NCBI GenBank assembly: GCA_046756565.1
Contig: JBHHWO010000001.1
Coordinates: 18,332 to 82,331, forward strand
Length of the DNA: 64,000 nt
From: Thermoanaerobaculia bacterium
GTDB lineage: Bacteria > Acidobacteriota > Thermoanaerobaculia > Multivoradales > JAHEKO01
Reading direction: 5' to 3'
Made by a program: the position numbers and the translations under genes
In this document: in pieces, positions 39,416-54,014 of the stretch
Layout of the letters: the number at the start of each line of letters is the position of its first letter
Numbering within the stretch: position 1 is the first letter of the stretch
Notes under the pieces: model-generated
The model's input: the letters and a program-made list of their open reading frames with translations, nothing else
The model's database searches: none
What the model was told of the DNA's origin: nothing

Positions 39416-39706
39416 ATGCTGAATGAGCTGACGCACTCGGATTTCGAGGACCTGGAAGACAAGTCGTTCGAGATCGACTTCGGCGAGGCCGGCAGGCTCA
39501 CGGCGACACTCGAGAAGACCGCCCGCTTCGACCTGGAGCCGGAAGAGGGCAAACGCGAGCCCTTTTCGATCTTCCTGCGTTGTCCGGCGCCACCGGTTCA
39601 GCGGACCTACCCGGCGACGAACAGCAAGCTCGGGACGCTCGAGCTCTTTCTGGTGCCAATCGACGAAAACGAGGACGGAATCCTCTTCGAGGCGGTGTTC
39701 ACGTAG
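39416..39706 (+). CDS. Small conserved hypothetical protein (96 aa), reminiscent of the DUF6916 family
   Basis: ATG at 39416 preceded by AAGGAG with a 6-nt spacer. The protein is MLNELTHSDFEDLEDKSFEIDFGEAGRLTATLEKTARF...EPFSIFLRCPAPPVQRTYPATNSKLGTLELFLVPIDENEDGILFEAVFT. The family assignment is from memory only. Confidence 0.5.
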   Translation: MLNELTHSDFEDLEDKSFEIDFGEAGRLTATLEKTARFDLEPEEGKREPFSIFLRCPAPPVQRTYPATNSKLGTLELFLVPIDENEDGILFEAVFT

Positions 39707-40411: not shown

Positions 40412-40882
40412 CTACGGCCGCCATTCCATCAGCCAGTAGACGCCCTGGTCCTCGATCTTCTCGAAGCCCAGGCGCTTATAGAGCCGCATCGCCGGGTTGT
40501 TCTGCTCGACGTGAATGCGCACGAGCTTGCCGGCTTGCCGAACTTCGTCGAGCACGCCACGCATGAGCCTTCCACCGATCCCTTTGCCGCGGAACTCGGG
40601 CAGGAGGGCGATGTCGATCAACCGGTGCTCATCCTCCCGGCGATCGATGTAGAGCCGGCCGATCGGCTCGCCGTTCACCTCGAGGATCGAGAACTCGGCG
40701 TCGGGGAAGATCTCTTGGTAGTACTTGTGCTGGGCTTCGAACTGGATCTTCAGGAAGGCGGCCTTCTCGGGCTCGGTCCACGGCACGACGGCCATCTCGT
40801 CGGCCCGCGTCGAGGCATAGATCCGGCGCAGAAGCGGTTCGTCCGTGTCTGTGATCGGACGCGATGTGATGGCCTCAGCCAT
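40412..40882 (-). CDS. GNAT family N-acetyltransferase
   Basis: Acetyl-CoA binding block LPEFRGKGIGGRLMRGVLDEV and RLYKRLGFEK. 156 aa. Confidence 0.9.
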   Translation of the reverse strand: MAEAITSRPITDTDEPLLRRIYASTRADEMAVVPWTEPEKAAFLKIQFEAQHKYYQEIFPDAEFSILEVNGEPIGRLYIDRREDEHRLIDIALLPEFRGKGIGGRLMRGVLDEVRQAGKLVRIHVEQNNPAMRLYKRLGFEKIEDQGVYWLMEWRP

Positions 40883-40892
40883 GAGTGCGTGG

Positions 40893-41429
40893 CTACTTTC
40901 TCTTTCGCACCGCTTGCTTGCCGACCGCCTTTGAAGACTTCGTTTTCCTCTTGGCCAGACTCTTCTTGGCCGCTCGCTTCTTCCTCGCCCGCTTCTTCGC
41001 CGGCGTCAGCTTGGCGGGCCGGACCACGGTGTGAAACTCGGCCTCTGCCGATTGGCCCCAGATCTCCCCTCGCAGAAGGCATCGAGACGGTCCCTCCAGG
41101 AGAGAGGCCGCGTCGATTCGGACCTTGCGAGTCTCATGACACTCCTGCCCGGGAGCCAGAGTGAGAGACCGGAACTTGAGGGGCTTATCGGGAGGCTTCT
41201 CGCCGCCCTTTCCACGGCCGCGTTCCCGGTCGATCTCGCGGCCGTCTTCGTCGAAAACGTGCCAGAAGTGCTCGTGGTCCCGAGATGGAGAGTGGAGCAC
41301 GAAGGTCTCGTCCGACGTGTTCAGCAGGGTGGTCCGGATCACCAGCCGGACGGTCTTCTGGCCCGGCTTGATCTCGACGACGTCGGGAGCGTCGATGCGC
41401 GCCTCGATCGCTTCTATGGGCATCACCAT
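40893..41429 (-). CDS. Hypothetical protein: a beta-sandwich-like domain (weakly BsuPI-like) with a ~45-aa Lys/Arg/Ala-rich histone-H1-like C-terminal tail
   Basis: Probable start MVMPIEAIE at 41429. The core is VRLVIRTTLLNTSDETFVLHSPSRDHEHFWHVFDEDGREI...LTLAPGQE. The tail is PAKLTPAKKRARKKRAAKKSLAKRKTKSSKAVGKQAVRKRK. It ends 10 nt before the GNAT start. Confidence 0.6.
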   Translation of the reverse strand: MVMPIEAIEARIDAPDVVEIKPGQKTVRLVIRTTLLNTSDETFVLHSPSRDHEHFWHVFDEDGREIDRERGRGKGGEKPPDKPLKFRSLTLAPGQECHETRKVRIDAASLLEGPSRCLLRGEIWGQSAEAEFHTVVRPAKLTPAKKRARKKRAAKKSLAKRKTKSSKAVGKQAVRKRK

Positions 41430-41624
41430 GATCCTTGAAACTCCTTTCTGTGGATCGAGGAACGCAGCAGAGCCGCCCTGGCTTCCGCGACCGCCCAATG
41501 GCCTAGCCCGTCGCTAGCGCCGGTTCCCAAGCGCTCTGTCCGGCTCTTGAGCCGCAGCCTAGCACCCTCGTCTCCGACTCGCTCCGTCTTCCGGTCGGTC
41601 TGCGTTGCACTCCCCAGCGGATCT

Positions 41625-41653
41625 TTGACAACTTCCTTCCGTTGACCTACGAT
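41625..41653 (+). promoter_or_regulatory. Sigma-70-like promoter of the tail-collar triplet
   Basis: TTGACA (41625-41630), a 17-nt spacer, and TACGAT (41648-41653), about 85 nt upstream of the first gene. Confidence 0.45.
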
Positions 41654-41738
41654 CCCAGGACCAATTCAGTCGGCAACCACAGGTTTCTGCCTTCACTCTC
41701 GGGGAATGGAGAAGGTTGAGCCAGACAAGGAGGTGCAC

Positions 41739-42266
41739 GTGTCAGAACCGTTTCTTGCCGAAGTCAGGATCGTCGGATTCAATTTCGCACCGCGTGGGTG
41801 GGCTTTCTGCGACGGGCAGATCCTGCCCATCAACCAGAACCAGTCGCTGTACTCGCTCTTGGGAACCACCTACGGCGGTGACGGGCGCACGTCATTTGCG
41901 CTTCCCGATCTGCGCGGCCGAACGCCGCTCCACGTCGGCTCCTCGAACGGCACGGGTCACCTCTTGGGAGGCAAGGGCGGCGAGGAAACGCATACGCTCT
42001 CGGCGGCGGAGATGGCCCAGCACACTCACACACTCAGGGCTTCCAATGCCAGCGCCACCCAGGTGTCAGCCGGTGGCAACGTTCTGGCCCGCGCATCGGC
42101 CACCGTCGGCACGATCTACGCCGCGACCGATGCCACCCTCAACACCAACATGGCCAGCACCGCGATCGCGAACGCCGGCGGCGGCCAGGGCCACGAGAAC
42201 ATGCAACCCTACATCGCAGTCAACTTCTGCATCGCGCTGCGGGGCCTGTTCCCTTCGCGGAACTAG
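41739..42266 (+). CDS. Phage tail collar domain protein (MdpB-like), paralog 1
   Basis: GTG at 41739 preceded by AAGGAGG with a 5-nt spacer gives VSEPFLAEVRIVGFNFAPRGWAFCDGQILPINQNQSLYSLLGTTYGGDGRTSFALPDLRGRTP. The C-terminus is GGGQGHENMQPYIAVNFCIALRGLFPSRN. The start was chosen by alignment with paralogs 2 and 3 (MSEPF...). Confidence 0.85.
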   Translation: MSEPFLAEVRIVGFNFAPRGWAFCDGQILPINQNQSLYSLLGTTYGGDGRTSFALPDLRGRTPLHVGSSNGTGHLLGGKGGEETHTLSAAEMAQHTHTLRASNASATQVSAGGNVLARASATVGTIYAATDATLNTNMASTAIANAGGGQGHENMQPYIAVNFCIALRGLFPSRN

Positions 42267-42279
42267 AGGAGGGAAGAGA

Positions 42280-42792
42280 ATGTCAGAACCATTTGTCGGA
42301 GAAATCCGTATGTTCGCTGGCAATTTCGCCCCGCGTGGCTGGGCCTTCTGTGACGGCCAACTGCTCGCCGTTTCGCAAAACGACGCCCTGTTCTCACTGC
42401 TCGGAACCATCTACGGCGGCGACGGCCGGACCACCTACGGCCTGCCCGACATGCGCGGGAGCATTCCGATCCACGCCGGGAGCGGCCCCGGCCTATCGCC
42501 GCGCAAGCTGGGGGCCAAGGGGGGCGCCGAGAAGGTCACCGTGACGACCAACCAGCTTCCCTCGCACAGCCACGACTTCAAGGCATCGACCACCAACGGC
42601 GTCAACGACTCACCGGAAGGAACGGTCTTCGGATCCGGTATCGCGGACGTTTTCCACGCCACGCCCTCGACGGACATGCGAGCAGCCATGGTCCAGGCCA
42701 CGGGTGGCAGCCGGAGTCACACCAACCTCATGCCTTTCCTGTGCATCCATTTCATCATCGCCCTCTTCGGCATCTACCCGTCGCAGCACTAG
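42280..42792 (+). CDS. Phage tail collar domain protein (MdpB-like), paralog 2
   Basis: ATG at 42280 after GAGGAGGG. MSEPFVGEIRMFAGNFAPRGWAFCDGQLLAVSQNDALFSLLGTIYGGDGRTTYGLPDMRGS ... GGSRSHTNLMPFLCIHFIIALFGIYPSQH. The listed ORF 41716..42792 is this gene plus an open upstream frame. Confidence 0.88.
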   Translation: MSEPFVGEIRMFAGNFAPRGWAFCDGQLLAVSQNDALFSLLGTIYGGDGRTTYGLPDMRGSIPIHAGSGPGLSPRKLGAKGGAEKVTVTTNQLPSHSHDFKASTTNGVNDSPEGTVFGSGIADVFHATPSTDMRAAMVQATGGSRSHTNLMPFLCIHFIIALFGIYPSQH

Positions 42793-42804
42793 AGGAAACA
42801 CGGA

Positions 42805-43329
42805 ATGTCAGAACCTTTTACAGCGGAAATCCGCATTTTCGCCGGTAACTTCGCGCCCCGCGGCTGGGCGTTCTGCAACGGCCAACTGCTCCCGGTTTCC
42901 CAGAACACGGCCCTCTTCTCTCTGATCGGCACCATCTATGGCGGCGATGGCAGAACCACAACAGCCCTACCCAACCTCAAAGGACGTGCGCCGATGCACC
43001 CCGGCAGAGGTCCGGGACTCACGAGTCGGCGGCTCGGCCAGAGGGGTGGCGTCGAGAGCGTCACGCTCACCGAAGCTCAGATTCCGAACCACACGCATAC
43101 GCCACGTGGGTCGGATACCGCGGCCAACTCCAACAGCCCGACCAACACGGCGACGTCGCGTCCCTCCGGTCGAGGAGCGGGTTGGTACATCAACAACGAT
43201 GGCAACGTCAACATGCGTAGCGGCGCCCTCGCTAACACTGGCGGGGGCCAGGCCCACAACAACATGCAGCCATTCCTGGCGATGAACTTCATCATCGCTC
43301 TGGTCGGCCTGTATCCCAGCCGGAGCTAG
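42805..43329 (+). CDS. Phage tail collar domain protein (MdpB-like), paralog 3
   Basis: MSEPFTAEIRIFAGNFAPRGWAFCNGQLLPVSQNTALFSLIGTIYGGDGRTTTALPNLKGRAP ... GGGQAHNNMQPFLAMNFIIALVGLYPSRS. Confidence 0.88.
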   Translation: MSEPFTAEIRIFAGNFAPRGWAFCNGQLLPVSQNTALFSLIGTIYGGDGRTTTALPNLKGRAPMHPGRGPGLTSRRLGQRGGVESVTLTEAQIPNHTHTPRGSDTAANSNSPTNTATSRPSGRGAGWYINNDGNVNMRSGALANTGGGQAHNNMQPFLAMNFIIALVGLYPSRS

Positions 43330-43353
43330 GCCGAGTCTCAACAACGCGGTTCC

Positions 43354-43396
43354 CACGGCGGCTTCCCCGCGACCGGGGAAGCCGCCGTGACTTTCT
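43354..43396 (+). terminator. Terminator hairpin after the tail-collar triplet
   Basis: cacggcggcttccccg-cgac-cggggaagccgccgtg, a 16-bp perfect stem followed by actttct. It begins 24 nt after the stop at 43329. Confidence 0.6.
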
Positions 43397-43418
43397 AAAG
43401 GAACACCGTCACGCCATC

Positions 43419-44033
43419 ATGCCCGACGACCATCTGACATACCTGAAATCCGACGTGCCAGCGGGCACGTCGGGAGAATGGACGATCGAGACCTTCGAGG
43501 TCAGGAAGCAACCCGGCGTCGACCGGCGACCCGAGTGCTTCCGGTCGCCGCCCGGCCGATACACGCGTCTCCGCCAGGGCGGCACGGTGTTCATGACGGA
43601 CCTCTACGACGAGTGGTACACGCAGCTCGATGGGATCAGAGAGGCGCGCCGACGAGGGGGTGAGATCCTGGTGACCGGCCTCGGCCTGGGCGTCGTCGCC
43701 GAATCGATCCTCGCCGGTCACGACTCGAAGGTCGAGCTCGTCACGGTCGTCGAGTACTCAGCGGACGTGATCCGGCTGGTCGCTCCGCATCTTCGCGAGA
43801 AGCTCGGACCCAGGCTCGAAATCGTCCAAGCCGGCGCCTATGAATGGCTGCCGCCCGCAGGCTCCCACTACACGGTCGGCTGGCACGATATCTGGGACAA
43901 CCCGCTCGATCCGGATTGCCTCGCAGAAATGGACGCGTTGGAATCACGATACAGCCCCTTCTGCGACTGGCAGAGCTCCTGGCCGCGCAGCTTCCAACGG
44001 GAAGCCGGCCACACGCCGGCACCGCCCGGGTAG
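43419..44033 (+). CDS. Hypothetical protein with a class I SAM-methyltransferase / spermidine-synthase-like fold
   Basis: Motif I-like ILVTGLGLGVVAE, acidic beta-2 end VELVTVVEYSADVI, and later HYTVGWHDIWD. The assignment is weak. Confidence 0.45.
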   Translation: MPDDHLTYLKSDVPAGTSGEWTIETFEVRKQPGVDRRPECFRSPPGRYTRLRQGGTVFMTDLYDEWYTQLDGIREARRRGGEILVTGLGLGVVAESILAGHDSKVELVTVVEYSADVIRLVAPHLREKLGPRLEIVQAGAYEWLPPAGSHYTVGWHDIWDNPLDPDCLAEMDALESRYSPFCDWQSSWPRSFQREAGHTPAPPG

Positions 44034-44138: not shown

Positions 44139-47100
44139 TCAGAAGATCCCGCCACTCGGCTTGGCGCAAGCCGTGCCGGTGATCGGGATCGACCCCCCAT
44201 CCACGTCGACGAAGGGCGGATTGAGCGTTGCGCTCGGCGTGCCGGTACCAGCGTCTCTCGTGTTTGGACCGCCTCGCACGCCGTCGTCGGCCAACTCGGC
44301 CTCGCAGTCTCCGGTGGAGCCGCCCGTACAGGGACCGGACGCCGCGTTGTTGACCGTGCCCTGGTACAGCACGATGGACCCTACGCCCGCCTCTTCCTCG
44401 AACTCGAAGCCGTCGGGTGAGACCGCGGTGTCGAGCGCCACGCATATCGTGCCGCCGCCACCCACGTTCGACGACTCGAATTCGACCGTCTCGGTCGTTG
44501 AAAAGAAGGCCTGGTCGTGGAACACCATCGTCTCGTTCTCGATCGACAGGTCGAGGTTGCCGCCGTTCCTCACCCGGTTTCGTGTCGGGATACCCGGCAC
44601 GGTAAAGGTGCCGAAGAACGGGTCCGGGCTGAAGAAGTCGTCTCGCCCGCGATGGCTGTTGCCGGTGATGAGCACCGCCGCCGAGGCGTTCCGATCGCCT
44701 CGGAGGAGGTAGGGCGAATTGATCGGACCGTTGAACACGTTGTCGTTGACTCGCACCTGGGCGTCGCCGTTGACCGAGCCACCACCGCCGCCGACGTCGT
44801 TCTCGAAGATGAGTGAGAGAGCTCCGTCGCCGCCAGCGGCCGTCATGATCTCGTCGGTCGTGCTGCCCATCCGATCGTCCGGTCCGACAGCCACGCCGAA
44901 CTGGTTGTACTCGACGATGCCGTCCAGTGTGCCGCCGCGCATGCGCAGCGCCAAGCCGCCCTGAGGGAAGTTACCGAACGTCGAGAGCGTGCTCGAGTGG
45001 TCGGTGACCCGGAAGGTATTGTTGGCGACTATGGCGTCGAGGTCGCCGGAAGCGCTGGCCTGGTGGGCGATCAGGACAGAGGCGAACTTGCAGTTGATGA
45101 ACTCGTTGCCGTCGTCGCCGTCCACGTGACCCGCAGTGGTATCCGTCTGATCACCGATCGTGACAGTCGTAGTGGTCGAGCCCTCGGAGGACACGGAGAT
45201 GCAGAACCTGCCGAGCGAAGCGATGGTGCCGCTGGTGAACTCTTTGTAGGCGTCGGTGAAGTCGCTGTCGGTGACCGTGACCGCGAGCGAGCCCGAGGAA
45301 GCGGAGAACAGCTCCAAAAGGGCGGCTCCCCGCCTGAACAAGCTGCCCGTCACGCTGGCTGTGCCGTCGATGCCGACAATTCGAATTGCTCCCTCGTCCT
45401 GATTGTCGGCGAGCCCGGCGACATGGAACCGGTTGGTGTCCTCGAGCAGGCTGTCGACCACGGTGAGGCCGGTCCAAGTGGTCGCCGAGACGCCGTTCGT
45501 GAAGAGAGCGCCGTTGACCGCCTGGTCGCTGATTCGCCGGATGATCGTATTGTCGAGAGTCAGGCCACCGCCAACGGCCTCGCCGTGAATGGCGTCGTCC
45601 TGGCTGCGGTCATCGATCACTCCGGCCGTGGTGCCAATGTCCTCGAAGAGCATGTTCTCGAAAGTCACCCGGCCGCCGGTGGTGTCGAGTGTGACCGCAT
45701 CGCCGTCGATGTTTTCGATCGTGCCGCCGTCACAGTCGAGTGTCATCGCGGTGTTGCCGCACGGACCGTCGATCCCGGTCACCGAGAACGTGCCGGCCCC
45801 GGTGGTGTCGAGGTTGATGGCAGGGTTGGTGCTCGTGCCGCCGCCGTCGACGTCGATCGACTGGAAGGTGACGCCGGCGCCACCGATCGTGACCGAGTCA
45901 ATGTCGACCGCTGTGCCCGAGACCGCCGTCGTGGCACCGACGGTGTTGACCACCGGCGTTCCGCCACCGGCTCCGCAGTTGGTGTCGGCGCAGACGTTGA
46001 CCGTGCCGCTGGTGCTCGCGTTGAAGGCGGTGCTGCCACCGGTGTCGAGGGTCATGCCGCCGGAGAAGGTCACCGTACCGGCACCGTTGCCGCTCAGATT
46101 GATGCCGGTGCCGTCTTCGTCGATGGAACCGCTGAAGAGAGCGGTGCCGCCGGTGCGTCCGGTTACTTCCACCGCGCGCGCGGTCGAGTTGGAGATCGTC
46201 GCGGCCACGGTGACGTTGCCGCTGCCGGCGTTGACGTCGACGGCGTTGCCGGCAGGATCGTTGCTCGACCCGATCGAGCCGCCGTTGATGTTGACCGCGT
46301 TGGTGTTGGTCCCGACGTCGATGCCAGCACCCGTCGTCCCGTCGATGTCGACGGTCGAAAAGGTCACCGTGCCGTTGGCACCCAGCAGATTGATGCCGGC
46401 GTCGGCTGTGGCGTCGATCGTCGCCGAGGTGAAGTTGAACGCCGCGCTCGACGAGACGATCGAGATGCCGTCGGCCGTGCCACCGGTGCCGTTGATGTCG
46501 ACAGCGCCGCCGTTGAAGGTGCCCGCATTGGTGGTGTTGATGACGCTGATACCGGCAGTGCTGCCACCGGTACCGGTTTTGTTGATGGTGTTCCAGTTGA
46601 TATCACCTGCACCGATCGCGACGCCCGAAAGATTGACGGTGGTTCCGTCGACCACGTCGATCGTGTTGACAACACCGGTACCTCCGCCGGCCTCGCAGTT
46701 GGTATCGGCGCAGACCTCGACCGTGCCGCTGGTCGTGGCGCTGAAGCCCGTGTTGCTCCCGCTGACGTCGATGTCGATCCCGCCGGAGAAAGACACGATC
46801 CCGGCGCCGTTCGAATCCAGCCCGATCCCGGCGCTGTTCTCGTCGACGGCCCCGGTGATTGCCACTTCGGTACCCATGTAGCCGGTGACTTCGACCGTAC
46901 GACCCATGCTGTTGGACAAGCTCGCACCGATCGTCACGTTGCCGCTGCCGCCGTTGACGTCGAGGCTGCGGTTGGCCGTGCCCTGAATCGTTCCTCCGCT
47001 CACTGTGAACGAACCGGTCGCCGCGCTGTTGAGCAGAATCCCGTTCGCACCGCCGTTCTTGTTGACGGTATCGAACGTGACTCCGATCCCACCGATCGTG

Positions 47101-50100
47101 GTGGTGTCGATGTCGACGGCGGTGCCGGTCGTCGTGTCGATTGTCGTGCTGACCGCCGTCGAATCCACGTTCACCGTGCCTCCGAGGGTGGCCGTGAAGG
47201 CGGCCCCGGAAGTCGTGTCGATATCGAGGCCGCCCGTGAAGTTGACGATGGCACCCGCGTTACTCGCCATGGATACGCCGCCGCCGACCGTAGATACCGT
47301 GGCGTTGTCCACGGTGGTCGCACCGGAGAACGTCGCCACGAGCGGCACGGTCTGGCCGTTGTTGTTCTTGATGTCGATCGCGGCCGAGGCGGTTTCGCGA
47401 ATGTCGATGGTGCCGTCCACGGTGACCGCGCCCTCGACGTCGTCGAGGACGATTCCCTGGCTGCCGCCAGCACCGTTGGCGTCCACGGTGACGTTGTTGA
47501 AAAAGGCGTTCACGGTCACCGGATCGAGGTCGATTCCGGTGCCGCCGATCGTATTGACGTCGGCGCTCGCGGCATTGCCAGCGTCGACGTTCAAGGTGAA
47601 GGTGTTGGCTTTCGAGTTCTGAATCGAGAGCCCCGTGCCGCCGCTGTTGGCGACTTCTAGATCGTCGAAGGTCAGCGTGCCGCTGACGCCGTCCAGAGCC
47701 AGGCCGGCGCCGTTGACCCGCGCCGCGACCGTTCCGATGACGCCGTTGCCTCCGGGAGCCGCCGAGCCGCCGCCGGAGTCAAAGGTGGCCGAGGTCACCG
47801 AGATCCCCGAACCGGTGCCGGCGCCGCCGGTCACCGTCAGCGTGTCGAAGTTCGCGATCGTGGTCGTGCCACCGGCCGAGCCGTTGACATCCAGGGCCGC
47901 CGAGCCGGTGGCCGATTGGAGCGTCAGGGTGTCGAAATCCAGGGTGGTGGCGCCCGCCGTCGTATCGATATCGATACCCGAAGCAGCGCCCGCAACGCCG
48001 CTGTTCTGGACCGTCAAGCTGGTCACGTCGGCGCCCGAGATCCCGTCGCCGGCGCCCCCGTTGCCGATCTCGACCCCGTCGATGGTAGCCGCGGCCGACG
48101 ACGCCACGGTTACCGTGTCTGTGGCGGCGGCGGTCGTGGTCAGAAGCGGCGCACCCGACGTCGGATTCGGGTTGTCGATCGTAGCGGCCGGGATGCCGGT
48201 GACCAGGAGATTCGCCGGAGCGCCCCCGGAGACCGCGAACGAGTCCTGAGCCGCGAAGCTCAGGAGCGACTGGCCGTCGGCCAGATCGAAGCTCCCGGTC
48301 ATGCCCTGGGCCGCCGAGTTGGCGTCGATCACGTCCTGGCCCGCGCCGGCCTGGTCTAGCAGCACGATGAACTGGGCGCCGCTCGCCTCCGCCCCCGCCA
48401 GGTTGCCGGGGCTCGCCGATGTACCGGTTCCCGTACCGACGGCATCGACGAAGTAGGCGTCGACCGAGAGGTTCGAGATCGCGCTGTTGCCGAAGTCGAC
48501 GTCCTCGAAGTCATAGGTGCCGTTGGTGCCGTTCATGCCCGCGATGACGATGGCGAAGCCGCCGTTCTCGGTGTCGATCGAGCTGTCGAGCGGCGTGTCG
48601 TTGCCGTCGCCGAACTGCACCAGTGCCGTGTTATTGGCGTTGGTGAGGTCGACGCCCACGTCGACGCCCTGGATGTCACTCGGGTTCGTGGTCGTGACGT
48701 CCTTGGTGTTGGTGGTCCCGGTGAGATCGATCCCGACGCTGCCCGCAGGCGGCGTGCCGACCGTTCCGGTGACGTCGAGGGTGTTGAAGGCGACCTTGGT
48801 GTTGCCGACGTTCGAGAGATCCAGACCGGTCACGCTCGCCCCGACGCCGGTGATGTCGACGTCGGCGAAAGTGACGTCGCCGTTCGAGCCCTGGATGTCG
48901 ATCCCGGCAGTGCCCGGGGTTCCGATCGTCGTCGCGCCGGTGAAGGTCATCGTGGCCGGGCTGTCCGAGATCAGGATGCCGTCGGCGGTGGTGTTCGAGA
49001 TGTCGGTCGTGCCGGTGACCTGGAAGGTGCCGGAGACCTCGTCGATCTCGATGCCGTTGGTGCCGCCCGAGGCCGTGACCGAGGTGAGCGTCATGGCCGT
49101 CGTCAGCGGATCCAGGAACATGGCCGGTCCGCCGCTGGTGTTGATCGTGCCCGAACCTGCCGCCAGATTGAAGTTGGTCGCGGCGCCCTTGGTGTTGACC
49201 TCGAGACCGGTACCGGCGTTGTTGAAGATGCTGAGCGTCGAGAAGTTGACGTCGCCAGTCGGGTCGAGGAATGAGAGACCGTCGCCCTGGACTCGCTGCG
49301 CCGCCATGGCTCCCTGGCCGATGTTCGTGGTCCCGCCGACTACCTGCTGGTTGCCCGCGAGGCCGAGATTGCTGTCGAAGCCGACCTTGTCGAAGAGCAT
49401 GCCGCCGCCCGTGCCGTTGGCGGTGACGGTCTGACCGGTTCCGGCGGTGCTCAAGGCGGTCACGACGATCGTGCTGTTGTTCGCGTTGATGTTCTGCCCG
49501 GTGACCTTCACGGCCTCGCCCCCGCCACCGTTCTCCCAGGTGTTGGAGCCGAGGTTGAGTCGCACCGTGTTCGCCGCGGGCGAGCCGCTGCCCTCGTTGA
49601 TCCGCAGCGGGAAGGAGGCGGTGCGCAGGTTGTTGCCGGAGACGTTGGCAGTCAGAATCCCGGTGCCGCTCGAGTTGATGTCGATGCCTCGCGCGCCGAT
49701 CGGCGGCATGCCTACAGTCGCGGTGTTGTTCTGCAGAGTCATCGTCCGCGCTGTGGCGTCGCTGTTGGTGATCGAGATGCCATCGTTGACAATCGAGGCA
49801 GTGGCGCCGAGCGTCACGCCGATGACCGAAAGGCTCGTGTTGATGACCAGGATCCCGTTGCTGGCGTTGTCGACACCGCCGCCGTTCACCGCCACCGAGC
49901 CGGAAGCGTTCGCTCGCAGCCCATCTCCGACCGACTGATTGATGTCGAGGTTCGCGAAGGTCACCGAGCCGGGGCTCGAATCCACGTTCACAGCGCGGCC
50001 GGTGCCGTTGGTGATCGCGGTCGTTCCGTCGAAGGTGAAGGTCCCGGCGGAGCCGGCCAGGATGTCGATGCCGGCATCGCCGCCGTTCAGGGTAACGTTG

Positions 50101-53100
50101 CCATTGAAGTCGTACGAGGACCCGTCGGCGTTGTTGAACTGAAGGCCGTCGCCGTTCGTAGCATCGAGGGTGCCGTCGGCAGTTATCGCACCAGTGTGGC
50201 CATTCGTCACACTGAGCGCCGATGCGTTCTGGCTCTGGCCAACCGAGCTCGATGCGCCGAAGTTGACGATCGAGGAGCCACCGTTGACGTCGATCCCGGC
50301 CGCGGCGGCGCCGGGGACGATGTCTGTGTCGGCGAACGTGAACGTCCCTGAGCCGCCGTCGATGTCGATGCCCTCGGAGCCCGTCAGCTCGGCGTCAGCG
50401 GTCAGGTTCGCATTCTGACCGACCGAGCTCAGGAAGATCCCCGTTCCCGCGCCGGAGTCCTGGAGGGCGTCGGCGGCGGCTGAGTCGAAGGTGATGGTGT
50501 TAGCGCCGGCGGCCGTGTTATTGATTTCGATCAGATCCCCTGCGTTGTTGGTGATGGCCCCGGCGTAGGTCACCGACGGGTTGTTGGTGCCGTCGCCGGT
50601 GACGTTGAAGGCGTCGCCGGTCGGGTTGGTGATCGAGGTGGTTCCGGCGAAGGTGAACGTCCCGTCGCTGTTGCCGAGGATGTCGATCCCGGCGTCGCCG
50701 CCGTTCAGGGTCGTTGTGCCGTCGAAGCCGTAGGTGCCGTCGGCATTGTCGAACTGGAGGCCGTCGCCATCGGTGGCGTTGATGCTGCCGTCGAAATCGA
50801 TCCCTCCGCTGTTGTGACCGTTGCCGACGTTGACCACGGTCTGGGTGCCGTTCTGCCCGAACGTGCTGGCCGCGCCGAAGTCGACCTGCGCGGTGCCGCC
50901 GTCGATGTCGAGGGCGGTGCCGGTGGGATTGGTGATGTCGGTGTCGGCGAACGTGAAGGTCCCGGAGCCGCCGTCGATGTCGATGCCCTCGCTGCCAGTG
51001 AGGGTCGCCGTGCCGGTGAAGTCGACATCCTGGGCCACGTTATTCAAGAAGACGCCGGTGCCGCTGTCGACGATGGCGCCGGTTTGGAACGTGATCGTGT
51101 TAGCCCCTGCCGCGGTGTTGTTGACCTGGATGACGTTCCCGGCGTTGTTGGTGATCGTCCCCGAGTAGATGACCAACGGGTTGTTGGCGCCGTCGCCAGT
51201 GACGTTGAAGGCGTCACCGCTCGGGCTGGTGATCGAGGTGGTTCCGGCGAAGGTGAACGTCCCGTCGCTGTTGCCGAGGATGTCGATCCCGGCGTCGCCA
51301 CCGTTGAGAGTCGTCGTGCCGTTGAAGTCGTAGGTGCCGTCGGCGTCGGCGAACTGAAGGCCGTCGCCGTTGGTTGTGTTGATCGTCGAGGCGGCGTCGA
51401 AGGTGATCGACCCGCTCACGCCGTTCACGTCGAGCGTCGTGTTGCCGATGCCCTGAGTGATCGAACCGTCGTTGAAGTCGAAATCGGGACTTCCACCGGT
51501 GATCCGAATCGGGATACCTATGCCGGTGGTACTCGTGATGTCGACGTTGGTGAATAACCACGACCCGGTGCCGTTGGTGATGTCCACCGCGATCGGCGCT
51601 GCCGCCACCAGATCCAGCTGGACCAGCTCGACCTGGATCGGGCCGGCGATGTTGGTCCCATCGATGCCGTCGCCGTTGACGGCATCCAAGTCGAGGCCGC
51701 GGATGACGACTGTGTCGGCCAAGCTAATCACCGGGGCCAGAGGCGCCGCCAGGCCATCGCTGATCAACGGCGCGTTCCCCGCCGCCACGATCGTCCCGAA
51801 CGGCGCGACGGTGAGACCCACCAGCTCACCCAGGAGCTCCTGACCGGCCTTCAGCATGATCCCCTGGTTCTGGCTGCTGTCGGTGCCGTTCCCCTCGAAC
51901 ACGAAGATCGTGTCGCCAGCCCCGGAAGCCGCTTCCGCGTCCTTGAGCACCTTGAACGGATCGGTGGAGGTTCCGGTGCCCGGACCGGCGACCGAGTTGT
52001 CGACGAACCAGATCAGATCCGAGATGTTGATAGTGACCGTTCCAACGTCGCCGCCCTCGTTGTCGCTGACTGTGTAGTTGAAGGTATCGGTCGGGCCCGC
52101 GAAACCGGGCGGCGGCGAGTAGGTGAACGTGCCGTCGGCCGCCATGTTGACGGTCGCTCCCGAGCCCAGCACCGTCGGGTTGCCGACGTTGCCCGCGACC
52201 CCTTCGACCGCGGAGACGACCAGCGGCGGTGGCGGCCCGTCCGGATCGACGTCGTCGTCGAGCACCGAGCCGGCGGCCAGAATCTGCGCCGGCGTCACCG
52301 GCTGGGAGTCGCCGGAGTTGTCCACCCGCAGCCCGGTGTTGCCGAGCGTGTCGTACATGTCGTCGGTCGCGGTCGGCGGTGTATCGTCAGTCACCTCGAC
52401 CGTGATGTCCTGGCTGTCGGTCAAGGTCGCCGAGTCGGTCACGGTGGCCGTGACCTCGTACTTGTTGTCGCCGTTCAGATCGGTTGGATTCTCGAAATCG
52501 GGAGCCATCACGAACGCCAGGATTCCGAAAGCGTCGATGGTGAGCTTGGCCGCGTCGTCGCCCGAGAGCGAGTAGACCAAGCCACCACCACCCTCGGTGT
52601 CGCCTTCGGCGTCGGTGGCGTCGACGTCGGTCACAGCGGTCGTGTTCTCGGGAACCGACACCATGGCCGCATCGCCGCCGCCGTTCGACGTGATCACCGG
52701 CGGCTGGTTCAGGCTCGGGTCGATGATCGCCGTGAAGCCGGCGCTGCCTTCGACCGAAAAGCCGTTGAAGAGCACGATCTTCTGACCGGCCCGGTACGTT
52801 ACACGGCCGCGCGGGATGATCTGAGTGTTCTCCGAGGTCACCATGTTGCAGGCGACAAACTCGGCAAAGACCGAGATCACCATGTTGTCGACGGCGAGGT
52901 TGGGAGTGCAGGCGGGCGGGGCGCTCAGCGGCTCGGGCTCCTCGCCGAGGAGGTCCGCAGGAGCCGAGCCGGAGAACTCGGCAGGTAGAGCGACGGGACC
53001 GCCACCCGGATCGGGCCGTTGGTTGCGTTCCGGCTCGCCGCCGCACGAGTCGATCACCTCGATTCGGTCGGAGGGCACCAGATCCGAACCGGTCAGGTTC

Positions 53101-54014
53101 ACTCCCTCGCAGGCCCTTAGGCGAAATGCGTCGGGCGCGTCCGAAGCCGCGCTGACCGAGCCGCGCCCGTAGCGCCAGCTCATGCCCCCGAGCTCGGAGG
53201 CCACCGAGATCCGGTCGTCCGCTCCGCCGCTGGCTCGAAGCTCGGCTCCGTCGAGAAGAACCGAATCCTGGGCGACCACAGTGATCTCGGCGCGCTCGCC
53301 CCCTTGCGCTTCGACGCGGCCGCGCCTGGGCCCGGTCCCGCGAGCCAGGTCCCGGCCGTCGATCGAAAGGTCTTGACAGGAGTCCATCACGACGCTTGCT
53401 CCGGGACCGTCTCCGATCGCGGCCACGAAGCCGAAGACATCAATGCCGCAGCCGGCGATGTTCACCTGCCCGCCCAGGCCGTCGCCGCCCGTAGCGAGTA
53501 CGGTCCCCGAAGTCCCGACCCGTACACCCTCGCCTGGGCCACCCAGAGACCCGATCGCCACTCTCGCCGGCTTACCGCCCGCACCGATCGCGGAAACCAG
53601 GCCGTCGATCTCGACGCGGCCTCGCGCGGAGAGCAGAACTTCGCCCCGATTCGCCACGGCGAAAGCGCCCTGGCGAACCAGAAGATCGCCCGCGGCTTCG
53701 ATCGACAGGCTCCCGCGCGCTCCGATCCCGGCTCCGGGGAGAATCGCCAGATCGCCCCGCACCGCGATCCGCATGTCGCAGGGCCCGGTCTCCTCGTCCT
53801 CGCCGCAGCTCAGCCGGCCCTCGAGCACCATGCTGTGCGGCACGGTCCAGACGCCGTCGGCCGCGCCATCCAGGTCCTCGATCGAGCCGTCGAGGCTCGA
53901 GAACGCGAGATCACCGGCCACTTCCGGCGTCCGGTCAGCCGAAGGCGCCGACACCGACAGGATCAGTGTCAGCGGGACAAAAAGCCTGAGCAAGCGCGCG
54001 CGTGCAGAGGACAT
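44139..54014 (-). CDS. Giant (3291 aa) secreted protein: signal peptide, cadherin-like domain, and several kb of degenerate parallel beta-helix-type repeats
   Basis: AAGGAG SD 6 nt before the ATG at 54014. Signal peptide MSSARARLLRLFVPLTLILSVSAPSA. The cadherin-like module is PVITSNGGGDAAMVSVPENTTAVTDVDATDAEGD...YEVTATVTDSATLTDSQDITVEVTDD. It is followed by long Gly/Thr/Asn/Asp-rich repeats (GDGLQF.NADGTY.F.GTTTLNGGDAGIDILGNSDGTFTF...). All + strand ORFs in this span are antisense shadows. Confidence 0.85.
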   Translation of the reverse strand: MSSARARLLRLFVPLTLILSVSAPSADRTPEVAGDLAFSSLDGSIEDLDGAADGVWTVPHSMVLEGRLSCGEDEETGPCDMRIAVRGDLAILPGAGIGARGSLSIEAAGDLLVRQGAFAVANRGEVLLSARGRVEIDGLVSAIGAGGKPARVAIGSLGGPGEGVRVGTSGTVLATGGDGLGGQVNIAGCGIDVFGFVAAIGDGPGASVVMDSCQDLSIDGRDLARGTGPRRGRVEAQGGERAEITVVAQDSVLLDGAELRASGGADDRISVASELGGMSWRYGRGSVSAASDAPDAFRLRACEGVNLTGSDLVPSDRIEVIDSCGGEPERNQRPDPGGGPVALPAEFSGSAPADLLGEEPEPLSAPPACTPNLAVDNMVISVFAEFVACNMVTSENTQIIPRGRVTYRAGQKIVLFNGFSVEGSAGFTAIIDPSLNQPPVITSNGGGDAAMVSVPENTTAVTDVDATDAEGDTEGGGGLVYSLSGDDAAKLTIDAFGILAFVMAPDFENPTDLNGDNKYEVTATVTDSATLTDSQDITVEVTDDTPPTATDDMYDTLGNTGLRVDNSGDSQPVTPAQILAAGSVLDDDVDPDGPPPPLVVSAVEGVAGNVGNPTVLGSGATVNMAADGTFTYSPPPGFAGPTDTFNYTVSDNEGGDVGTVTINISDLIWFVDNSVAGPGTGTSTDPFKVLKDAEAASGAGDTIFVFEGNGTDSSQNQGIMLKAGQELLGELVGLTVAPFGTIVAAGNAPLISDGLAAPLAPVISLADTVVIRGLDLDAVNGDGIDGTNIAGPIQVELVQLDLVAAAPIAVDITNGTGSWLFTNVDITSTTGIGIPIRITGGSPDFDFNDGSITQGIGNTTLDVNGVSGSITFDAASTINTTNGDGLQFADADGTYDFNGTTTLNGGDAGIDILGNSDGTFTFAGTTSITSPSGDAFNVTGDGANNPLVIYSGTITNNAGNVIQVNNTAAGANTITFQTGAIVDSGTGVFLNNVAQDVDFTGTATLTGSEGIDIDGGSGTFTFADTDITNPTGTALDIDGGTAQVDFGAASTFGQNGTQTVVNVGNGHNSGGIDFDGSINATDGDGLQFDNADGTYGFDGTTTLNGGDAGIDILGNSDGTFTFAGTTSITNPTGDAFNVTGDGTNNPSVTYAGAITNNAGDLIEINNTAAGANTITFDSAAADALQDSGAGTGIFLSSVGQNANLTADAELTGSEGIDIDGGSGTFTFADTDIVPGAAAAGIDVNGGSSIVNFGASSSVGQSQNASALSVTNGHTGAITADGTLDATNGDGLQFNNADGSSYDFNGNVTLNGGDAGIDILAGSAGTFTFDGTTAITNGTGRAVNVDSSPGSVTFANLDINQSVGDGLRANASGSVAVNGGGVDNASNGILVINTSLSVIGVTLGATASIVNDGISITNSDATARTMTLQNNTATVGMPPIGARGIDINSSGTGILTANVSGNNLRTASFPLRINEGSGSPAANTVRLNLGSNTWENGGGGEAVKVTGQNINANNSTIVVTALSTAGTGQTVTANGTGGGMLFDKVGFDSNLGLAGNQQVVGGTTNIGQGAMAAQRVQGDGLSFLDPTGDVNFSTLSIFNNAGTGLEVNTKGAATNFNLAAGSGTINTSGGPAMFLDPLTTAMTLTSVTASGGTNGIEIDEVSGTFQVTGTTDISNTTADGILISDSPATMTFTGATTIGTPGTAGIDIQGSNGDVTFADVDITGVGASVTGLDLSNVGNTKVAFNTLDVTGTVGTPPAGSVGIDLTGTTNTKDVTTTNPSDIQGVDVGVDLTNANNTALVQFGDGNDTPLDSSIDTENGGFAIVIAGMNGTNGTYDFEDVDFGNSAISNLSVDAYFVDAVGTGTGTSASPGNLAGAEASGAQFIVLLDQAGAGQDVIDANSAAQGMTGSFDLADGQSLLSFAAQDSFAVSGGAPANLLVTGIPAATIDNPNPTSGAPLLTTTAAATDTVTVASSAAATIDGVEIGNGGAGDGISGADVTSLTVQNSGVAGAASGIDIDTTAGATTLDFDTLTLQSATGSAALDVNGSAGGTTTIANFDTLTVTGGAGTGSGISVTSATFDSGGGSAAPGGNGVIGTVAARVNGAGLALDGVSGTLTFDDLEVANSGGTGLSIQNSKANTFTLNVDAGNAASADVNTIGGTGIDLDPVTVNAFFNNVTVDANGAGGSQGIVLDDVEGAVTVDGTIDIRETASAAIDIKNNNGQTVPLVATFSGATTVDNATVSTVGGGVSMASNAGAIVNFTGGLDIDTTSGAAFTATLGGTVNVDSTAVSTTIDTTTGTAVDIDTTTIGGIGVTFDTVNKNGGANGILLNSAATGSFTVSGGTIQGTANRSLDVNGGSGNVTIGASLSNSMGRTVEVTGYMGTEVAITGAVDENSAGIGLDSNGAGIVSFSGGIDIDVSGSNTGFSATTSGTVEVCADTNCEAGGGTGVVNTIDVVDGTTVNLSGVAIGAGDINWNTINKTGTGGSTAGISVINTTNAGTFNGGAVDINGTGGTADGISIVSSSAAFNFTSATIDATADAGINLLGANGTVTFSTVDIDGTTGAGIDVGTNTNAVNINGGSIGSSNDPAGNAVDVNAGSGNVTVAATISNSTARAVEVTGRTGGTALFSGSIDEDGTGINLSGNGAGTVTFSGGMTLDTGGSTAFNASTSGTVNVCADTNCGAGGGTPVVNTVGATTAVSGTAVDIDSVTIGGAGVTFQSIDVDGGGTSTNPAINLDTTGAGTFSVTGIDGPCGNTAMTLDCDGGTIENIDGDAVTLDTTGGRVTFENMLFEDIGTTAGVIDDRSQDDAIHGEAVGGGLTLDNTIIRRISDQAVNGALFTNGVSATTWTGLTVVDSLLEDTNRFHVAGLADNQDEGAIRIVGIDGTASVTGSLFRRGAALLELFSASSGSLAVTVTDSDFTDAYKEFTSGTIASLGRFCISVSSEGSTTTTVTIGDQTDTTAGHVDGDDGNEFINCKFASVLIAHQASASGDLDAIVANNTFRVTDHSSTLSTFGNFPQGGLALRMRGGTLDGIVEYNQFGVAVGPDDRMGSTTDEIMTAAGGDGALSLIFENDVGGGGGSVNGDAQVRVNDNVFNGPINSPYLLRGDRNASAAVLITGNSHRGRDDFFSPDPFFGTFTVPGIPTRNRVRNGGNLDLSIENETMVFHDQAFFSTTETVEFESSNVGGGGTICVALDTAVSPDGFEFEEEAGVGSIVLYQGTVNNAASGPCTGGSTGDCEAELADDGVRGGPNTRDAGTGTPSATLNPPFVDVDGGSIPITGTACAKPSGGIF
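49990..51420 (-). repeat. Intragenic tandem repeat with a 600-bp (200-aa) period inside the giant gene, 2 close copies plus 1 diverged
   Basis: An exact 600-bp offset. 50641-50700 vs 51241-51300 match at 59/60 positions, 50581-50640 vs 51181-51240 at 55/60, and 50701-50760 vs 51301-51360 at 51/60 (counted by eye). A third, weaker copy lies near 50000-50160. Confidence 0.75.

What the first reader, a model, noticed from the sequence alone, without database searches (positions are those of the whole stretch)
41625..43396. Orphan operon of three tandem phage-tail-collar (MdpB-like) paralogs with its own promoter and terminator and no phage or tailocin genes nearby
**Seen in sequence**
- Three ~170-175-aa genes are separated by 13 and 12 nt, each with its own SD.
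- They share an almost invariant N-terminus: SEPF..E.R.F.GNFAPRGWAFCDGQLL...QN.ALFSL.GT.YGGDGRT...LP...G.
- They share a C-terminal block (GG.Q.H.N.QP....NF.IAL.G.YPS).
- The ~60-aa middle region differs between them.
- A TTGACA-17-TACGAT promoter and a 16-bp terminator bracket exactly these three genes.
- Nowhere in the 64 kb is there a sheath, tube, baseplate, capsid, terminase, integrase or lysis gene.

**Established knowledge**
- The tail collar domain (PF07484) trimerises in phage fibres such as T4 gp12.
- Free-standing MdpB-type proteins are widespread but functionally unexplained.

**Inference**
- Three distinct paralogs in one operon fit a 1:1:1 heterotrimeric fibre or lectin-like module.
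- The variable middle segments would specify the ligand.
- The module may act on the cell surface or as a receptor-binding or antagonistic factor.
Basis: partly seen in the sequence, partly recalled or inferred. Interest (0 to 1): 0.7.

Follow-up and report, generated by a model that had tools for sequence, protein, structure and literature searches.

The report
Three-part tail-fibre-tip module beside giant adhesin
Three small genes copied long ago from the tip of a phage tail fibre are kept together, always one of each, in bacteria of at least a dozen phyla, next to an acetyltransferase and a giant surface protein, so they most likely form one three-chain binding head used by the cell itself and not by a virus.

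Summary
Three co-oriented Collar-domain genes (A 41739-42266, B 42280-42792, C 42805-43329) lie 13 and 12 nt apart, between a promoter-like site and a 16-bp hairpin. The 64 kb holds no phage genes.

The operon is not orphan. In 80 related loci from about 12 phyla the same A-B-C set recurs: 63 ABC, 4 double, and rare permutations. Orthologues are 60-75% identical; paralogues 44-55%. A GNAT acetyltransferase accompanies it in 76/80 loci, DUF6916 in 54/80, and usually a giant secreted repeat protein. All three partners are in this window, rearranged: 40412-40882, 39416-39706 and 44139-54014.

The heterotrimer idea has indirect support:
- strict 1:1:1 retention with roughly 12-nt gene gaps;
- natural single-chain fusions of exactly three diverged units, some embedded in giant adhesins;
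- hypervariable tips after an invariant HxH motif that diverge in concert;
- a 2025 experiment showing that three consecutive collar proteins of a virophage form a 1:1:1 fibre.

Assembly, export route, ligand and the GNAT's substrate remain untested. I rate it a new variant of a known kind, interest about 0.6.

The parts
41625..41653 (+). sigma-70-like promoter candidate, TTGACA-17-TACGAT
   Evidence: Matches 10 of 12 consensus positions. It is one of 2 sites in 39000-44300, against 0.6 expected from shuffles. This is a consensus match only.
41739..42266 (+). Collar paralogue A (175 aa, GTG start)
   Evidence: Pfam Collar E 1.5e-28 and Gp10_C 27.3 bits. It is the A orthogroup, 56-74% identical to first-position genes of 77 loci.
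42280..42792 (+). Collar paralogue B (170 aa)
   Evidence: Pfam Collar E 3.1e-28. Orthologues are 60-75% identical across about 12 phyla.
42805..43329 (+). Collar paralogue C (174 aa)
   Evidence: Pfam Collar E 2e-27. It is the C orthogroup, 53-74% identical across loci.
42021..42176 (+). HxH motif (42021-42029) and hypervariable tip of A
   Evidence: The two histidines are invariant in all three paralogues. The following 49 aa have a top-residue frequency of 0.35-0.47 among 77 orthologues.
42565..42702 (+). HxH motif (42565-42573) and hypervariable tip of B
   Evidence: The HxH aligns with the SHQH of phage long tail fibre 8kec.
43090..43239 (+). HxH motif (43090-43098) and hypervariable tip of C
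43354..43389 (+). perfect 16-bp GC-rich hairpin after gene C
   Evidence: RNA fold of the 91-nt stretch holding it is -44.6 kcal/mol, z = -5.6. It lacks a U-run and was not called by the terminator scan.
43419..44033 (+). methyltransferase-like gene (204 aa), an accessory neighbour in this lineage
   Evidence: phrog_15480 methyltransferase, E 4e-27. Homologues lie directly after the triplet in L008, L012 and L042.
44139..54014 (-). giant secreted repeat protein (3291 aa, N-terminal signal peptide, G/T/A/D/N-rich)
   Evidence: Segments are homologous to giant ORFs beside the triplet in 32 loci. An ORF of at least 1000 aa lies within 10 kb of the triplet in 53 of 80 loci, most often directly upstream on the same strand. 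It has no Pfam hit at E 1e-3.
40412..40882 (-). GNAT N-acetyltransferase (156 aa), the conserved partner
   Evidence: Pfam Acetyltransf_1/7/10/3. Homologue present in 76 of 80 loci, 61 of them directly downstream on the same strand. It is also beside divergent triplets in Paenibacillus, Deinococcus, Sinorhizobium and Azospirillum.
39416..39706 (+). DUF6916 protein (96 aa), the conserved partner
   Evidence: Pfam PF21880 E 8.7e-20. Homologue in 54 of 80 loci. AF2 model has pLDDT 93.7 and is a small beta-barrel with no significant Foldseek match.
40893..41498 (-). hypothetical protein with a lysine-rich tail (start uncertain), an accessory neighbour
   Evidence: No Pfam hit. Homologues lie beside triplets in L012, L024, L042 and L051.

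Best explanation
**What it most likely is**
- A, B and C are the three subunits of one pseudo-threefold mini-fibre. This is a domesticated phage receptor-binding tip with no shaft.
- Each chain gives a conserved collar (residues 1-98 plus the last ~30) and one HxH pair. The three pairs would clamp a metal ion on the axis, as in T4 gp12 and gp37.
- The hypervariable 43-49 residues after the HxH form the distal head that binds the ligand, probably a surface glycan.
- Tight spacing (12-13 nt) gives roughly equimolar synthesis.

**How it fits in the cell**
- The trimer is part of a non-phage bacterial module with a GNAT acetyltransferase, a DUF6916 beta-barrel protein and a giant secreted repeat protein.
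- I think it works at the cell surface with that giant protein, as its ligand-binding head or accessory lectin.
- I think the GNAT modifies the invariant N-termini (M)SEPF of the three chains.

**Shown and inferred**
- Shown: homology, the three orthogroups, synteny, fusions and tip hypervariability.
- Inferred: hetero-assembly, metal binding, surface location, the ligand, and the roles of the GNAT and DUF6916.
For: **Fold family**
- Collar hits at E about 1e-28 and Gp10_C hits, which reach the curated cutoff only for A.
- PDB sequence hits only to tail fibres 8kec and gp12.
- PHROG tail-protein families match only an internal or C-terminal part of longer phage proteins.

**One of each**
- Of 80 genome loci, 63 are ABC, 4 ABCABC, and 4 BAC, BCA or CBA. 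Nearly all the rest are cut by contig ends.
- Orthologues are 60-75% identical, paralogues 44-55%.
- Median gene gaps are 12 nt.

**Rosetta-stone fusions**
- Among the best 150 representative clusters, 98 have exactly three collar units in one chain. Unit identity within a chain has a median of 42%.
- 23 of the 150 exceed 1000 aa. The four scanned each hold three Collar domains among Big_9, Cadherin, He_PIG, FG-GAP or PATR repeats.

**Tips**
- Tip p-distance is 0.76-0.80, against 0.19 for the scaffold.
- The three tips diverge together: partial Mantel r 0.37-0.47, p <= 0.0005.
- Lengths match within triplets across subfamilies, for example 224/225/224 and 182/182/182.

**Precedent**
- Three consecutive collar proteins of virophage DSLV2 co-purify 1:1:1 as 16-nm fibres (PMC12724248).

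**Neighbourhood**
- GNAT 76/80, DUF6916 54/80, and a giant ORF of at least 1000 aa within 10 kb in 53 of 80 loci.
- The same set occurs in Ruegeria, Paenibacillus, Deinococcus and Sinorhizobium.

**Outside the cytoplasm**
- The Kosakonia homologues carry lipoprotein-type signal peptides and sit after a giant Ig-like protein and TolC/HlyD genes.
- 47 of 77 short triple chains have a hydrophobic leader.
- A Ruegeria pomeroyi collar protein was found in the exoproteome (PMC4949626).

**GNAT**
- Its nearest characterised relatives include N-alpha-acetyltransferases (RimI, Naa50, 6wqb).
- GNAT-linked triplets have no signal peptide, and most of their chains have a small residue after Met1.
Against: - No direct test of assembly was possible. 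The AF2 monomer model of B was unusable (pLDDT 43.5) and no multimer tool was available.
- A, B and C have no signal peptide, so the export route is unknown. A cytoplasmic role is not excluded.
- The giant neighbours differ in domain make-up. One is absent in Azospirillum. Co-location in surface-protein islands could explain part of the association.
- The GNAT's matches are all far below the family cutoffs. Its substrate is a guess.
- DUF6916 gave no informative structural match.
- The partial Mantel test may retain shared phylogeny.
- The top-150 list favours multi-unit proteins, because their scores add up.
- Characterised phage collars (gp12, gp37) are homotrimers.
Confidence: 0.55

Rival explanations
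1. Three independent homotrimers: each gene makes its own gp12-like homotrimeric tip with its own specificity, giving the cell three alternative binding heads.
For: Characterised phage collar proteins (T4 gp12, gp37) are homotrimers (established knowledge; PDB hits). Each gene has its own ribosome-binding site. Some relatives occur as single genes, for example in Pectobacterium and Thalassobaculum.
Against: Independent heads should vary freely in copy number. Instead, exactly one A, one B and one C are kept in 67 complete loci, and doubled loci are ABCABC. Single chains hold three diverged units, rarely other numbers. In the virophage triplet two of the three homotrimers were unstable, though only in simulation, and the three proteins co-purified.
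Confidence: 0.15
2. A secreted antagonistic or protective factor. The hypervariable tips would be in an arms race, acting as receptor-blocking decoys against phages or as the targeting part of a bacteriocin-like agent. The GNAT would be a self-protection enzyme.
For: A fast-evolving tip on a frozen scaffold is typical of conflict systems. GNATs often give immunity or resistance (weak matches to resistance acetyltransferases). Cross-phylum identity of 60-75% suggests horizontal spread.
Against: There is no toxin domain in or beside the triplet. There is no hit to 5027 defence-system models. The recurring partner is an adhesin-like giant protein, and the units are fused into such proteins.
Confidence: 0.1
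3. A cytoplasmic complex unrelated to the cell surface, for example a small-molecule or metal-binding assembly whose link to giant genes is only co-location.
For: There is no signal peptide on A, B, C, the GNAT or DUF6916. The RhiB-type collar protein works beside RhiA, now shown to bind plant metabolites (PMC13490719).
Against: Signal-peptide and lipoprotein versions exist. Triple units are embedded in secreted giant proteins. A Ruegeria pomeroyi collar protein was detected in the exoproteome.
Confidence: 0.1
4. A decaying remnant of a prophage or tailocin tail-fibre locus.
For: The domain is of phage origin, and public annotation calls these genes 'tail fiber protein'.
Against: There are no phage genes in 64 kb. 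All three genes are intact and conserved with the same non-phage partners in about 12 phyla. Phage homologues reach only about 37% identity. A true phage context looks quite different (L109).
Confidence: 0.02

Closest known systems
Tripartite tail proteins of virophage DSLV2 (J Virol 2025, PMC12724248)
   Same: Three consecutive, co-oriented Collar-domain (PF07484) genes, each protein about 19 kDa. They have a conserved collar and a variable head. They were shown to co-purify 1:1:1 as a fibre of about 16 nm that binds Synechococcus cells.
   Different: They are encoded in a virus genome beside capsid genes and serve virion attachment. Here there is no virus, and the partners are a GNAT, DUF6916 and a giant cellular surface protein. 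Sequence relatedness to the DSLV2 proteins was not tested.
T4 short and long tail-fibre tips (gp12, gp37) and baseplate gp10
   Same: Collar domain sequence similarity. The HxH motif is in the position where those fibres bind Zn or Fe on the trimer axis (established knowledge). There is a Gp10_C match, above the curated cutoff only for A.
   Different: Those are homotrimers of long proteins with a shaft, attached to a baseplate and built with phage chaperones. Here there are three different chains of about 170 aa, with no shaft and no phage genes.
RhiB of rhiABC(R) in Rhizobium leguminosarum and MrpB of Microcystis (the 'MdpB' / COG4675 name-givers)
   Same: Free-standing bacterial Collar-domain proteins in small operons outside prophages, with no assigned biochemical function.
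   Different: There is only one collar gene per operon. The partners RhiA/MrpA (metabolite-binding beta-sandwich, PMC13490719) and RhiC have no Collar domain (PMC13133039). rhiABC is under LuxR/LuxI-type quorum-sensing control. None of this is seen here.
Giant repeat adhesin loci with dedicated export genes (Kosakonia, Pectobacterium, Thalassobaculum collar subfamily)
   Same: Collar proteins sit beside a giant Ig-like or DUF4347 surface protein, which shows the adhesin link in a second subfamily.
   Different: Those collar proteins carry signal or lipoprotein peptides, are longer (about 225-237 aa), may be single genes, lack a GNAT, and sit beside TolC/HlyD-type genes that are absent from this window.

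Membership tests
Pfam PF07484 Collar / COG4675 'microcystin-dependent protein' family | Profile match above the curated cutoff | tested here: met
   95-99 bits against a cutoff of 24 for all three. JGI names close homologues 'microcystin-dependent protein'.
T4 gp12/gp37-type trimeric fibre tip | Collar domain plus an HxH metal-site motif | tested here: met
   gp12 chains are hit at E 6e-4 to 5e-3. The HxH aligns with the SHQH of 8kec and is invariant in A, B and C. This is sequence-level evidence only.
T4 gp12/gp37-type trimeric fibre tip | Homotrimer of one gene product | not testable with these tools
   No multimer prediction was available and the monomer model failed. Comparative data point to a hetero-assembly instead.
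T4 gp12/gp37-type trimeric fibre tip | N-terminal shaft and phage structural gene context | tested here: not met
   The proteins begin at the collar. They match only part of the phage tail-protein profiles. There are no phage genes in 64 kb.
Virophage-type tripartite heterotrimeric collar fibre (PMC12724248) | Three consecutive co-oriented Collar genes of similar length | tested here: met
   The same holds in 67 related loci.
Virophage-type tripartite heterotrimeric collar fibre (PMC12724248) | 1:1:1 hetero-assembly | not testable with these tools
   Indirect support only: one-of-each retention, triple-unit single chains and concerted tip divergence.
Virophage-type tripartite heterotrimeric collar fibre (PMC12724248) | Encoded in a viral genome next to capsid genes | tested here: not met
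   The context is chromosomal, with FeoB, BipA, malic enzyme and NDH-2 nearby.
rhiABC / mrpAB operons | RhiA/MrpA-type partner gene | not tested
   No RhiA sequence or profile was at hand. The flanking genes here have other identities.
rhiABC / mrpAB operons | Adjacent LuxR/LuxI quorum-sensing regulators | tested here: not met
   None among the genes scanned around the locus.
Prophage or tailocin tail-fibre locus | Sheath, tube, baseplate, tape-measure or lysis genes nearby | tested here: not met
   Compare the true phage-plasmid locus L109.
Known anti-phage defence systems (PADLOC) | Match to any defence-system protein model | tested here: not met
   No hit for A, B, C, the GNAT or DUF6916.
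Bacterial module defined here: giant protein + A + B + C + GNAT + DUF6916 | All six components within about 15 kb | tested here: met
   In the window: DUF6916 39416-39706, GNAT 40412-40882, A/B/C 41739-43329, giant 44139-54014. Frequencies in 80 loci are.

The most novel reading that the evidence does not exclude
A phage receptor-binding tip was captured by bacteria and turned into an obligate A-B-C heterotrimeric lectin. Its N-termini are modified by a dedicated GNAT. It serves as the exchangeable, fast-evolving binding head of giant surface adhesins. It has spread by horizontal transfer through more than ten phyla. This would be a previously unrecognised class of bacterial adhesion or recognition module.
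Probability: 0.3. Interest if true: 0.8.

Novelty: new variant of a known kind. Interest (0 to 1): 0.6.

Why it matters
- Thousands of bacterial genes are labelled 'tail fiber protein' or 'microcystin-dependent protein' with no known role. The profile search found 58,760 clusters at 50% identity.
- This analysis suggests that many of them are not phage leftovers. They would be one conserved cellular device: three different chains forming one binding head, tied to an acetyltransferase and to giant adhesins.
- If true, it explains a large block of mis-annotated genes.
- It would also be a rare case of an obligate heterotrimeric fibre tip.
- It offers a handle on how giant adhesins choose their targets.
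- It would provide a compact, naturally diversified scaffold for engineering binders.
- Cultured hosts carry the full module, so it is directly testable. Examples are Ruegeria sp. TM1040 (TM1040_RS01845-RS01875), Sinorhizobium meliloti LMB1, Deinococcus ficus and Paenibacillus amylolyticus.

Tried and rejected
- **AF2 model of B.** Built with a 47-sequence alignment, it gave pLDDT 43.5, too poor for fold search. An obligate intertwined trimer is expected to model badly as a monomer.
- **DUF6916.** The model was excellent (pLDDT 93.7). Foldseek against PDB and BFVD gave nothing below E 0.06, only weak PilZ-like and head-tail adaptor-like barrels. No function could be assigned.
- **NCBIfam.** No model for A, B, C, DUF6916 or the two flanking hypotheticals.
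- **PADLOC.** No hit, so I dropped the defence-system idea as the main reading.
- **De novo clustering of flanking ORFs.** It was swamped by low-complexity shadow ORFs of the GC-rich loci. I replaced it with tblastn using the window's own neighbours.
- **Length covariation of the tips.** Pearson r is 0.57-0.70, but this is driven by a few divergent subfamilies. Spearman is 0.13-0.33, so it is only suggestive.
- **rhiABC.** Considered as the explanation and rejected. Only RhiB has a Collar domain. The plasmid hit I fetched hoping for rhiB was a real phage-plasmid tail fibre.
- **GNAT and DUF6916 as a toxin-antitoxin pair.** Rejected, because they are mostly convergent rather than co-transcribed.
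- **Literature.** Eight searches found no paper on the bacterial triplet or on its link to a GNAT.
Full report
**1. The observation**

The + strand carries three genes.
- A is 41739-42266 and 175 aa. It starts at GTG, 5 nt after AAGGAGG. The upstream ATG at 41706 would add 11 residues that no orthologue has.
- B is 42280-42792 and 170 aa.
- C is 42805-43329 and 174 aa.
- The gaps are 13 and 12 nt.

Each protein matches Pfam Collar (PF07484) at E about 1e-28. Each also matches the C-terminal domain of T4 baseplate protein gp10; only A just passes the curated cutoff, and B and C fall below it. Pairwise identity is 44-55%.

Residues 1-98 and the last ~30 residues are shared. A segment of 43-49 residues that follows an invariant HxH motif differs.

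TTGACA-17-TACGAT lies at 41625-41653. A perfect 16-bp hairpin lies at 43354-43389 (z = -5.6). It has no U-run and is not a textbook intrinsic terminator.

Pfam scans of about 40 ORFs show ordinary chromosomal genes and no phage structural, integration or lysis gene. Among them are FeoB, BipA, malic enzyme, NDH-2, a sulfatase and a two-component system.

**2. The triplet is ancient and kept one-of-each**

B has at least 8000 relatives in the 90%-identity protein database. The nearest, from unrelated phyla, are still 72-76% identical.

A scan of one genome per species returned the capped 600 pattern matches. The best 80 loci come from about 12 phyla by record title:
- Alpha-, Beta- and Gammaproteobacteria, Acidobacteriota and Chloroflexota;
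- Rhodothermales, Planctomycetota, Gemmatimonadota and Deinococcota;
- Bacteroidota, Calditrichia, Desulfobacterota, Actinomycetes and Deferribacteres.

Many are metagenome bins, so single assignments may be wrong.

I called collar ORFs with a profile and assigned each to its best window paralogue.
- The result was 63 ABC, 4 ABCABC, 2 BAC, 1 BCA and 1 CBA. Nearly all the remaining loci are cut by contig ends.
- Orthologues are 60-75% identical. Paralogues are 44-55% identical.
- The triplication is therefore older than the spread, and every lineage kept one of each.
- Gene gaps have a median of 12 nt in 67 loci.
- More divergent relatives on plasmids and megaplasmids also nearly always come in threes.

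**3. The operon is not orphan**

I searched the 80 loci with the window's own neighbours.
- **GNAT.** The acetyltransferase at 40412-40882 (- strand) has a homologue in 76 of 80 loci. In 61 it is directly downstream on the same strand.
- **DUF6916.** The small protein at 39416-39706 (Pfam E 8.7e-20) has a homologue in 54 of 80.
- **Giant protein.** Segments of the 3291-aa secreted protein at 44139-54014 match giant ORFs in 32 loci. An ORF of at least 1000 aa lies within 10 kb of the triplet in 53 of 80 loci. In the clearest cases it ends 1-500 nt before gene A on the same strand.

Gene tables confirm the pattern.
- Stappia has a 3732-aa beta-helix protein, then three Collar genes, a PLL-type beta-propeller, a GNAT and DUF6916.
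- Acanthopleuribacter has a 2763-aa cadherin/Big_9 protein, three Collar genes and a GNAT.
- The Ruegeria sp. TM1040 megaplasmid has a 'choice-of-anchor D' giant, three 'tail fiber protein' genes, a hypothetical gene, a GNAT and a 97-aa DUF6916-like protein.
- The more distant triplets of Paenibacillus, Deinococcus and Sinorhizobium each sit beside a large protein of 900-1683 aa and a GNAT. These triplets are 44%, 53% and 44% identical to B.
- Azospirillum has the GNAT and the small protein but no giant gene nearby.

In the window all partners are present but rearranged. The order is:
- DUF6916 (+), then an inserted RHH-Doc toxin-antitoxin pair;
- GNAT (-) and a lysine-tailed hypothetical gene (-);
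- A, B and C (+), then a methyltransferase-like gene (+);
- the giant gene (-).

Proximity kept through rearrangement argues for a functional link. The two hypothetical flanking genes also recur beside triplets in a few related loci.

**4. Evidence for one three-chain assembly**

(a) One-of-each retention and tight spacing, as above.

(b) Natural fusions.
- A profile search of 1.84 billion representatives found 58,760 clusters at E <= 1e-3 and 7,605 at E <= 1e-30.
- Among the best 150, 98 have exactly three collar units in one polypeptide and 48 have two. The rest have 5, 6, 6 and 9.
- Units follow each other almost without a linker. Within a chain they are only 29-63% identical (median 42%), like A, B and C.
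- This list favours multi-unit proteins because scores add up. It shows that such chains are common, not how common.

(c) Lengths match within a triplet even where subfamilies differ. Examples are 224/225/224 in Kosakonia, 182/182/182 in L090 and 166/173/170 in Deinococcus.

(d) Tips.
- Within each orthogroup the scaffold is at least 90% conserved. The 43-49 residues after the HxH have a top-residue frequency of only 0.33-0.47.
- Tip p-distance is 0.76-0.80, against 0.19 for the scaffold.
- The three tips diverge together after scaffold distance is regressed out (partial Mantel r 0.37-0.47, p <= 0.0005). Residual phylogeny may contribute to this.

(e) Precedent. In virophage DSLV2, three consecutive Collar proteins co-purify through one tagged subunit. 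They run as about 55 kDa on native gels, appear as 16-nm fibres and bind Synechococcus cells (PMC12724248).

(f) The HxH aligns with the SHQH of a solved phage long tail fibre. In T4 gp12 and gp37 such histidine pairs from three chains hold Zn or Fe on the axis. That last point is established knowledge, not tested here.

**5. Evidence for a surface role with giant adhesins**

- 23 of the 150 best clusters exceed 1000 aa. The four I scanned each hold exactly three Collar domains.
- Those domains sit among Big_9, Cadherin, He_PIG, FG-GAP, SdrD_B, CARDB, F5/8-type-C or autotransporter passenger repeats. Several of these domain types (Big_9, cadherin-like repeats) also make up the giant neighbours.
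- One short triple chain (P0149) has a clear Sec signal peptide. 47 of 77 short triple chains have a hydrophobic leader by a crude test.
- On a Kosakonia plasmid, a giant Ig-like protein is followed by TolC, three HlyD/RND-adaptor genes and three collar genes.
- The products of those collar genes carry lipoprotein-type signal peptides ending in Cys, just before the conserved EPY(L/V)G start. No GNAT is present.
- Relatives in Pectobacterium and Thalassobaculum are single genes beside DUF4347 giant adhesins.
- A Collar protein of Ruegeria pomeroyi was detected in exoproteomes (PMC4949626). COG4675 proteins turn up in soil metaproteomes (PMC5579227).

Against this, A, B and C here have no signal peptide. 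How they would leave the cell is unknown.

**6. GNAT and DUF6916**

- The GNAT's nearest solved or curated relatives include N-alpha-acetyltransferases (RimI, Naa50, Naa30 and 6wqb). All matches are far below the family cutoffs.
- The N-terminus MSEPF is invariant in A, B and C across phyla. In more distant GNAT-linked triplets most chains have Ser, Gly, Ala, Thr or Asp after Met1.
- The subfamily without a GNAT has a lipidated Cys at the matching position.
- I therefore propose that the GNAT acetylates or acylates the three N-termini. This is inference from a small sample.
- DUF6916 models confidently as a small beta-barrel, but has no significant structural neighbour. An assembly or adaptor role is only a guess.

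**7. Comparison with what is known**

- The proteins are members of the Collar / COG4675 family.
- They work like the tip of gp12 or gp37, but fail that family's context and shaft criteria.
- Their closest functional analogue is the virophage heterotrimer, but they are cellular.
- They are not rhiABC. There only RhiB has the domain (PMC13133039), and RhiA is a metabolite-binding protein (PMC13490719).
- They match no defence-system model.
- Phage homologues reach only about 37% identity. A true phage-plasmid fibre locus looks quite different.
- Eight literature searches found nothing on the bacterial triplet, its GNAT or DUF6916.

**8. Verdict**

'Orphan' is wrong. The heterotrimer and ligand-tip idea is supported indirectly, and the virophage work already anticipates it.
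- This window holds an ordinary member of a very widespread module. That module, giant protein + A/B/C + GNAT + DUF6916, appears to be undescribed.
- Novelty: a new variant of a known kind. Interest: 0.6. Confidence in the combined mechanistic reading: 0.55.
- I rank its parts by confidence:
  - hetero-assembly, most secure;
  - surface role with the giant protein, next;
  - N-terminal modification by the GNAT, least secure.

Noticed in passing
window 1-6107 (- strand, runs off the window start): A second giant ORF of at least 2035 aa, with 13 DUF7933 repeats plus DUF11 and SpaA_4 domains. It is another surface-type giant protein, 35 kb from the triplet. The ORF listing does not show it because it is cut by the window edge.
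   Followed up: no
window 39792-40404 (+), promoter-like site 39765-39793: A ribbon-helix-helix antitoxin and a Fic/Doc toxin gene overlap by 11 nt. They are inserted between DUF6916 and the GNAT, and have their own promoter-like site. The related loci I inspected do not have them there.
   Followed up: partly
window 40893-41498 (- strand): A hypothetical protein whose last ~45 residues are an extremely lysine/arginine/alanine-rich tail. It has no Pfam hit, but homologues lie next to triplets in L012, L024, L042 and L051.
   Followed up: partly
window 43419-44033 (+): A methyltransferase-like gene (phrog_15480, E 4e-27, no Pfam hit) sits 90 nt after gene C, beyond the hairpin. Homologues follow the triplet directly in L008, L012 and L042. 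The operon may therefore sometimes read through.
   Followed up: partly
L015, L028, L032, L076: Four genomes carry two ABC triplets in tandem. The second set is much more diverged (49-66% to the window). In L028, L032 and L076 a GNAT lies between the two sets.
   Followed up: partly
L092-L098 (IMG/VR viral contigs): 'Headless' collar proteins of 78-101 aa match the N-terminal ~60 profile positions, and in six of the seven also the last ~14. They lack the HxH and the whole tip.
   Followed up: no
P0148 (4832 aa), P0221 (2368 aa), P0158 (795 aa): Proteins with many collar stretches: 18, 13 and 9 matched pieces. Counted as N-terminal collar blocks, the multi-unit chains have 5, 6, 6 and 9 units.
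   Followed up: no
L083 11092-12375, and 13 alphaproteobacterial loci: A PLL-type beta-propeller gene (Pfam Beta-prop_PLL, a lectin fold) is inserted between gene C and the GNAT in Stappia, Roseibium, Hoeflea, Tritonibacter and relatives. Deinococcus has a substrate-binding protein in that slot.
   Followed up: partly
window 21173-23920 (-) and 32886-36566 (+): A 915-aa CHAT-domain protein, and a 1226-aa SNF2 helicase with a SWIM zinc finger. Neither appears related to the finding.
   Followed up: no
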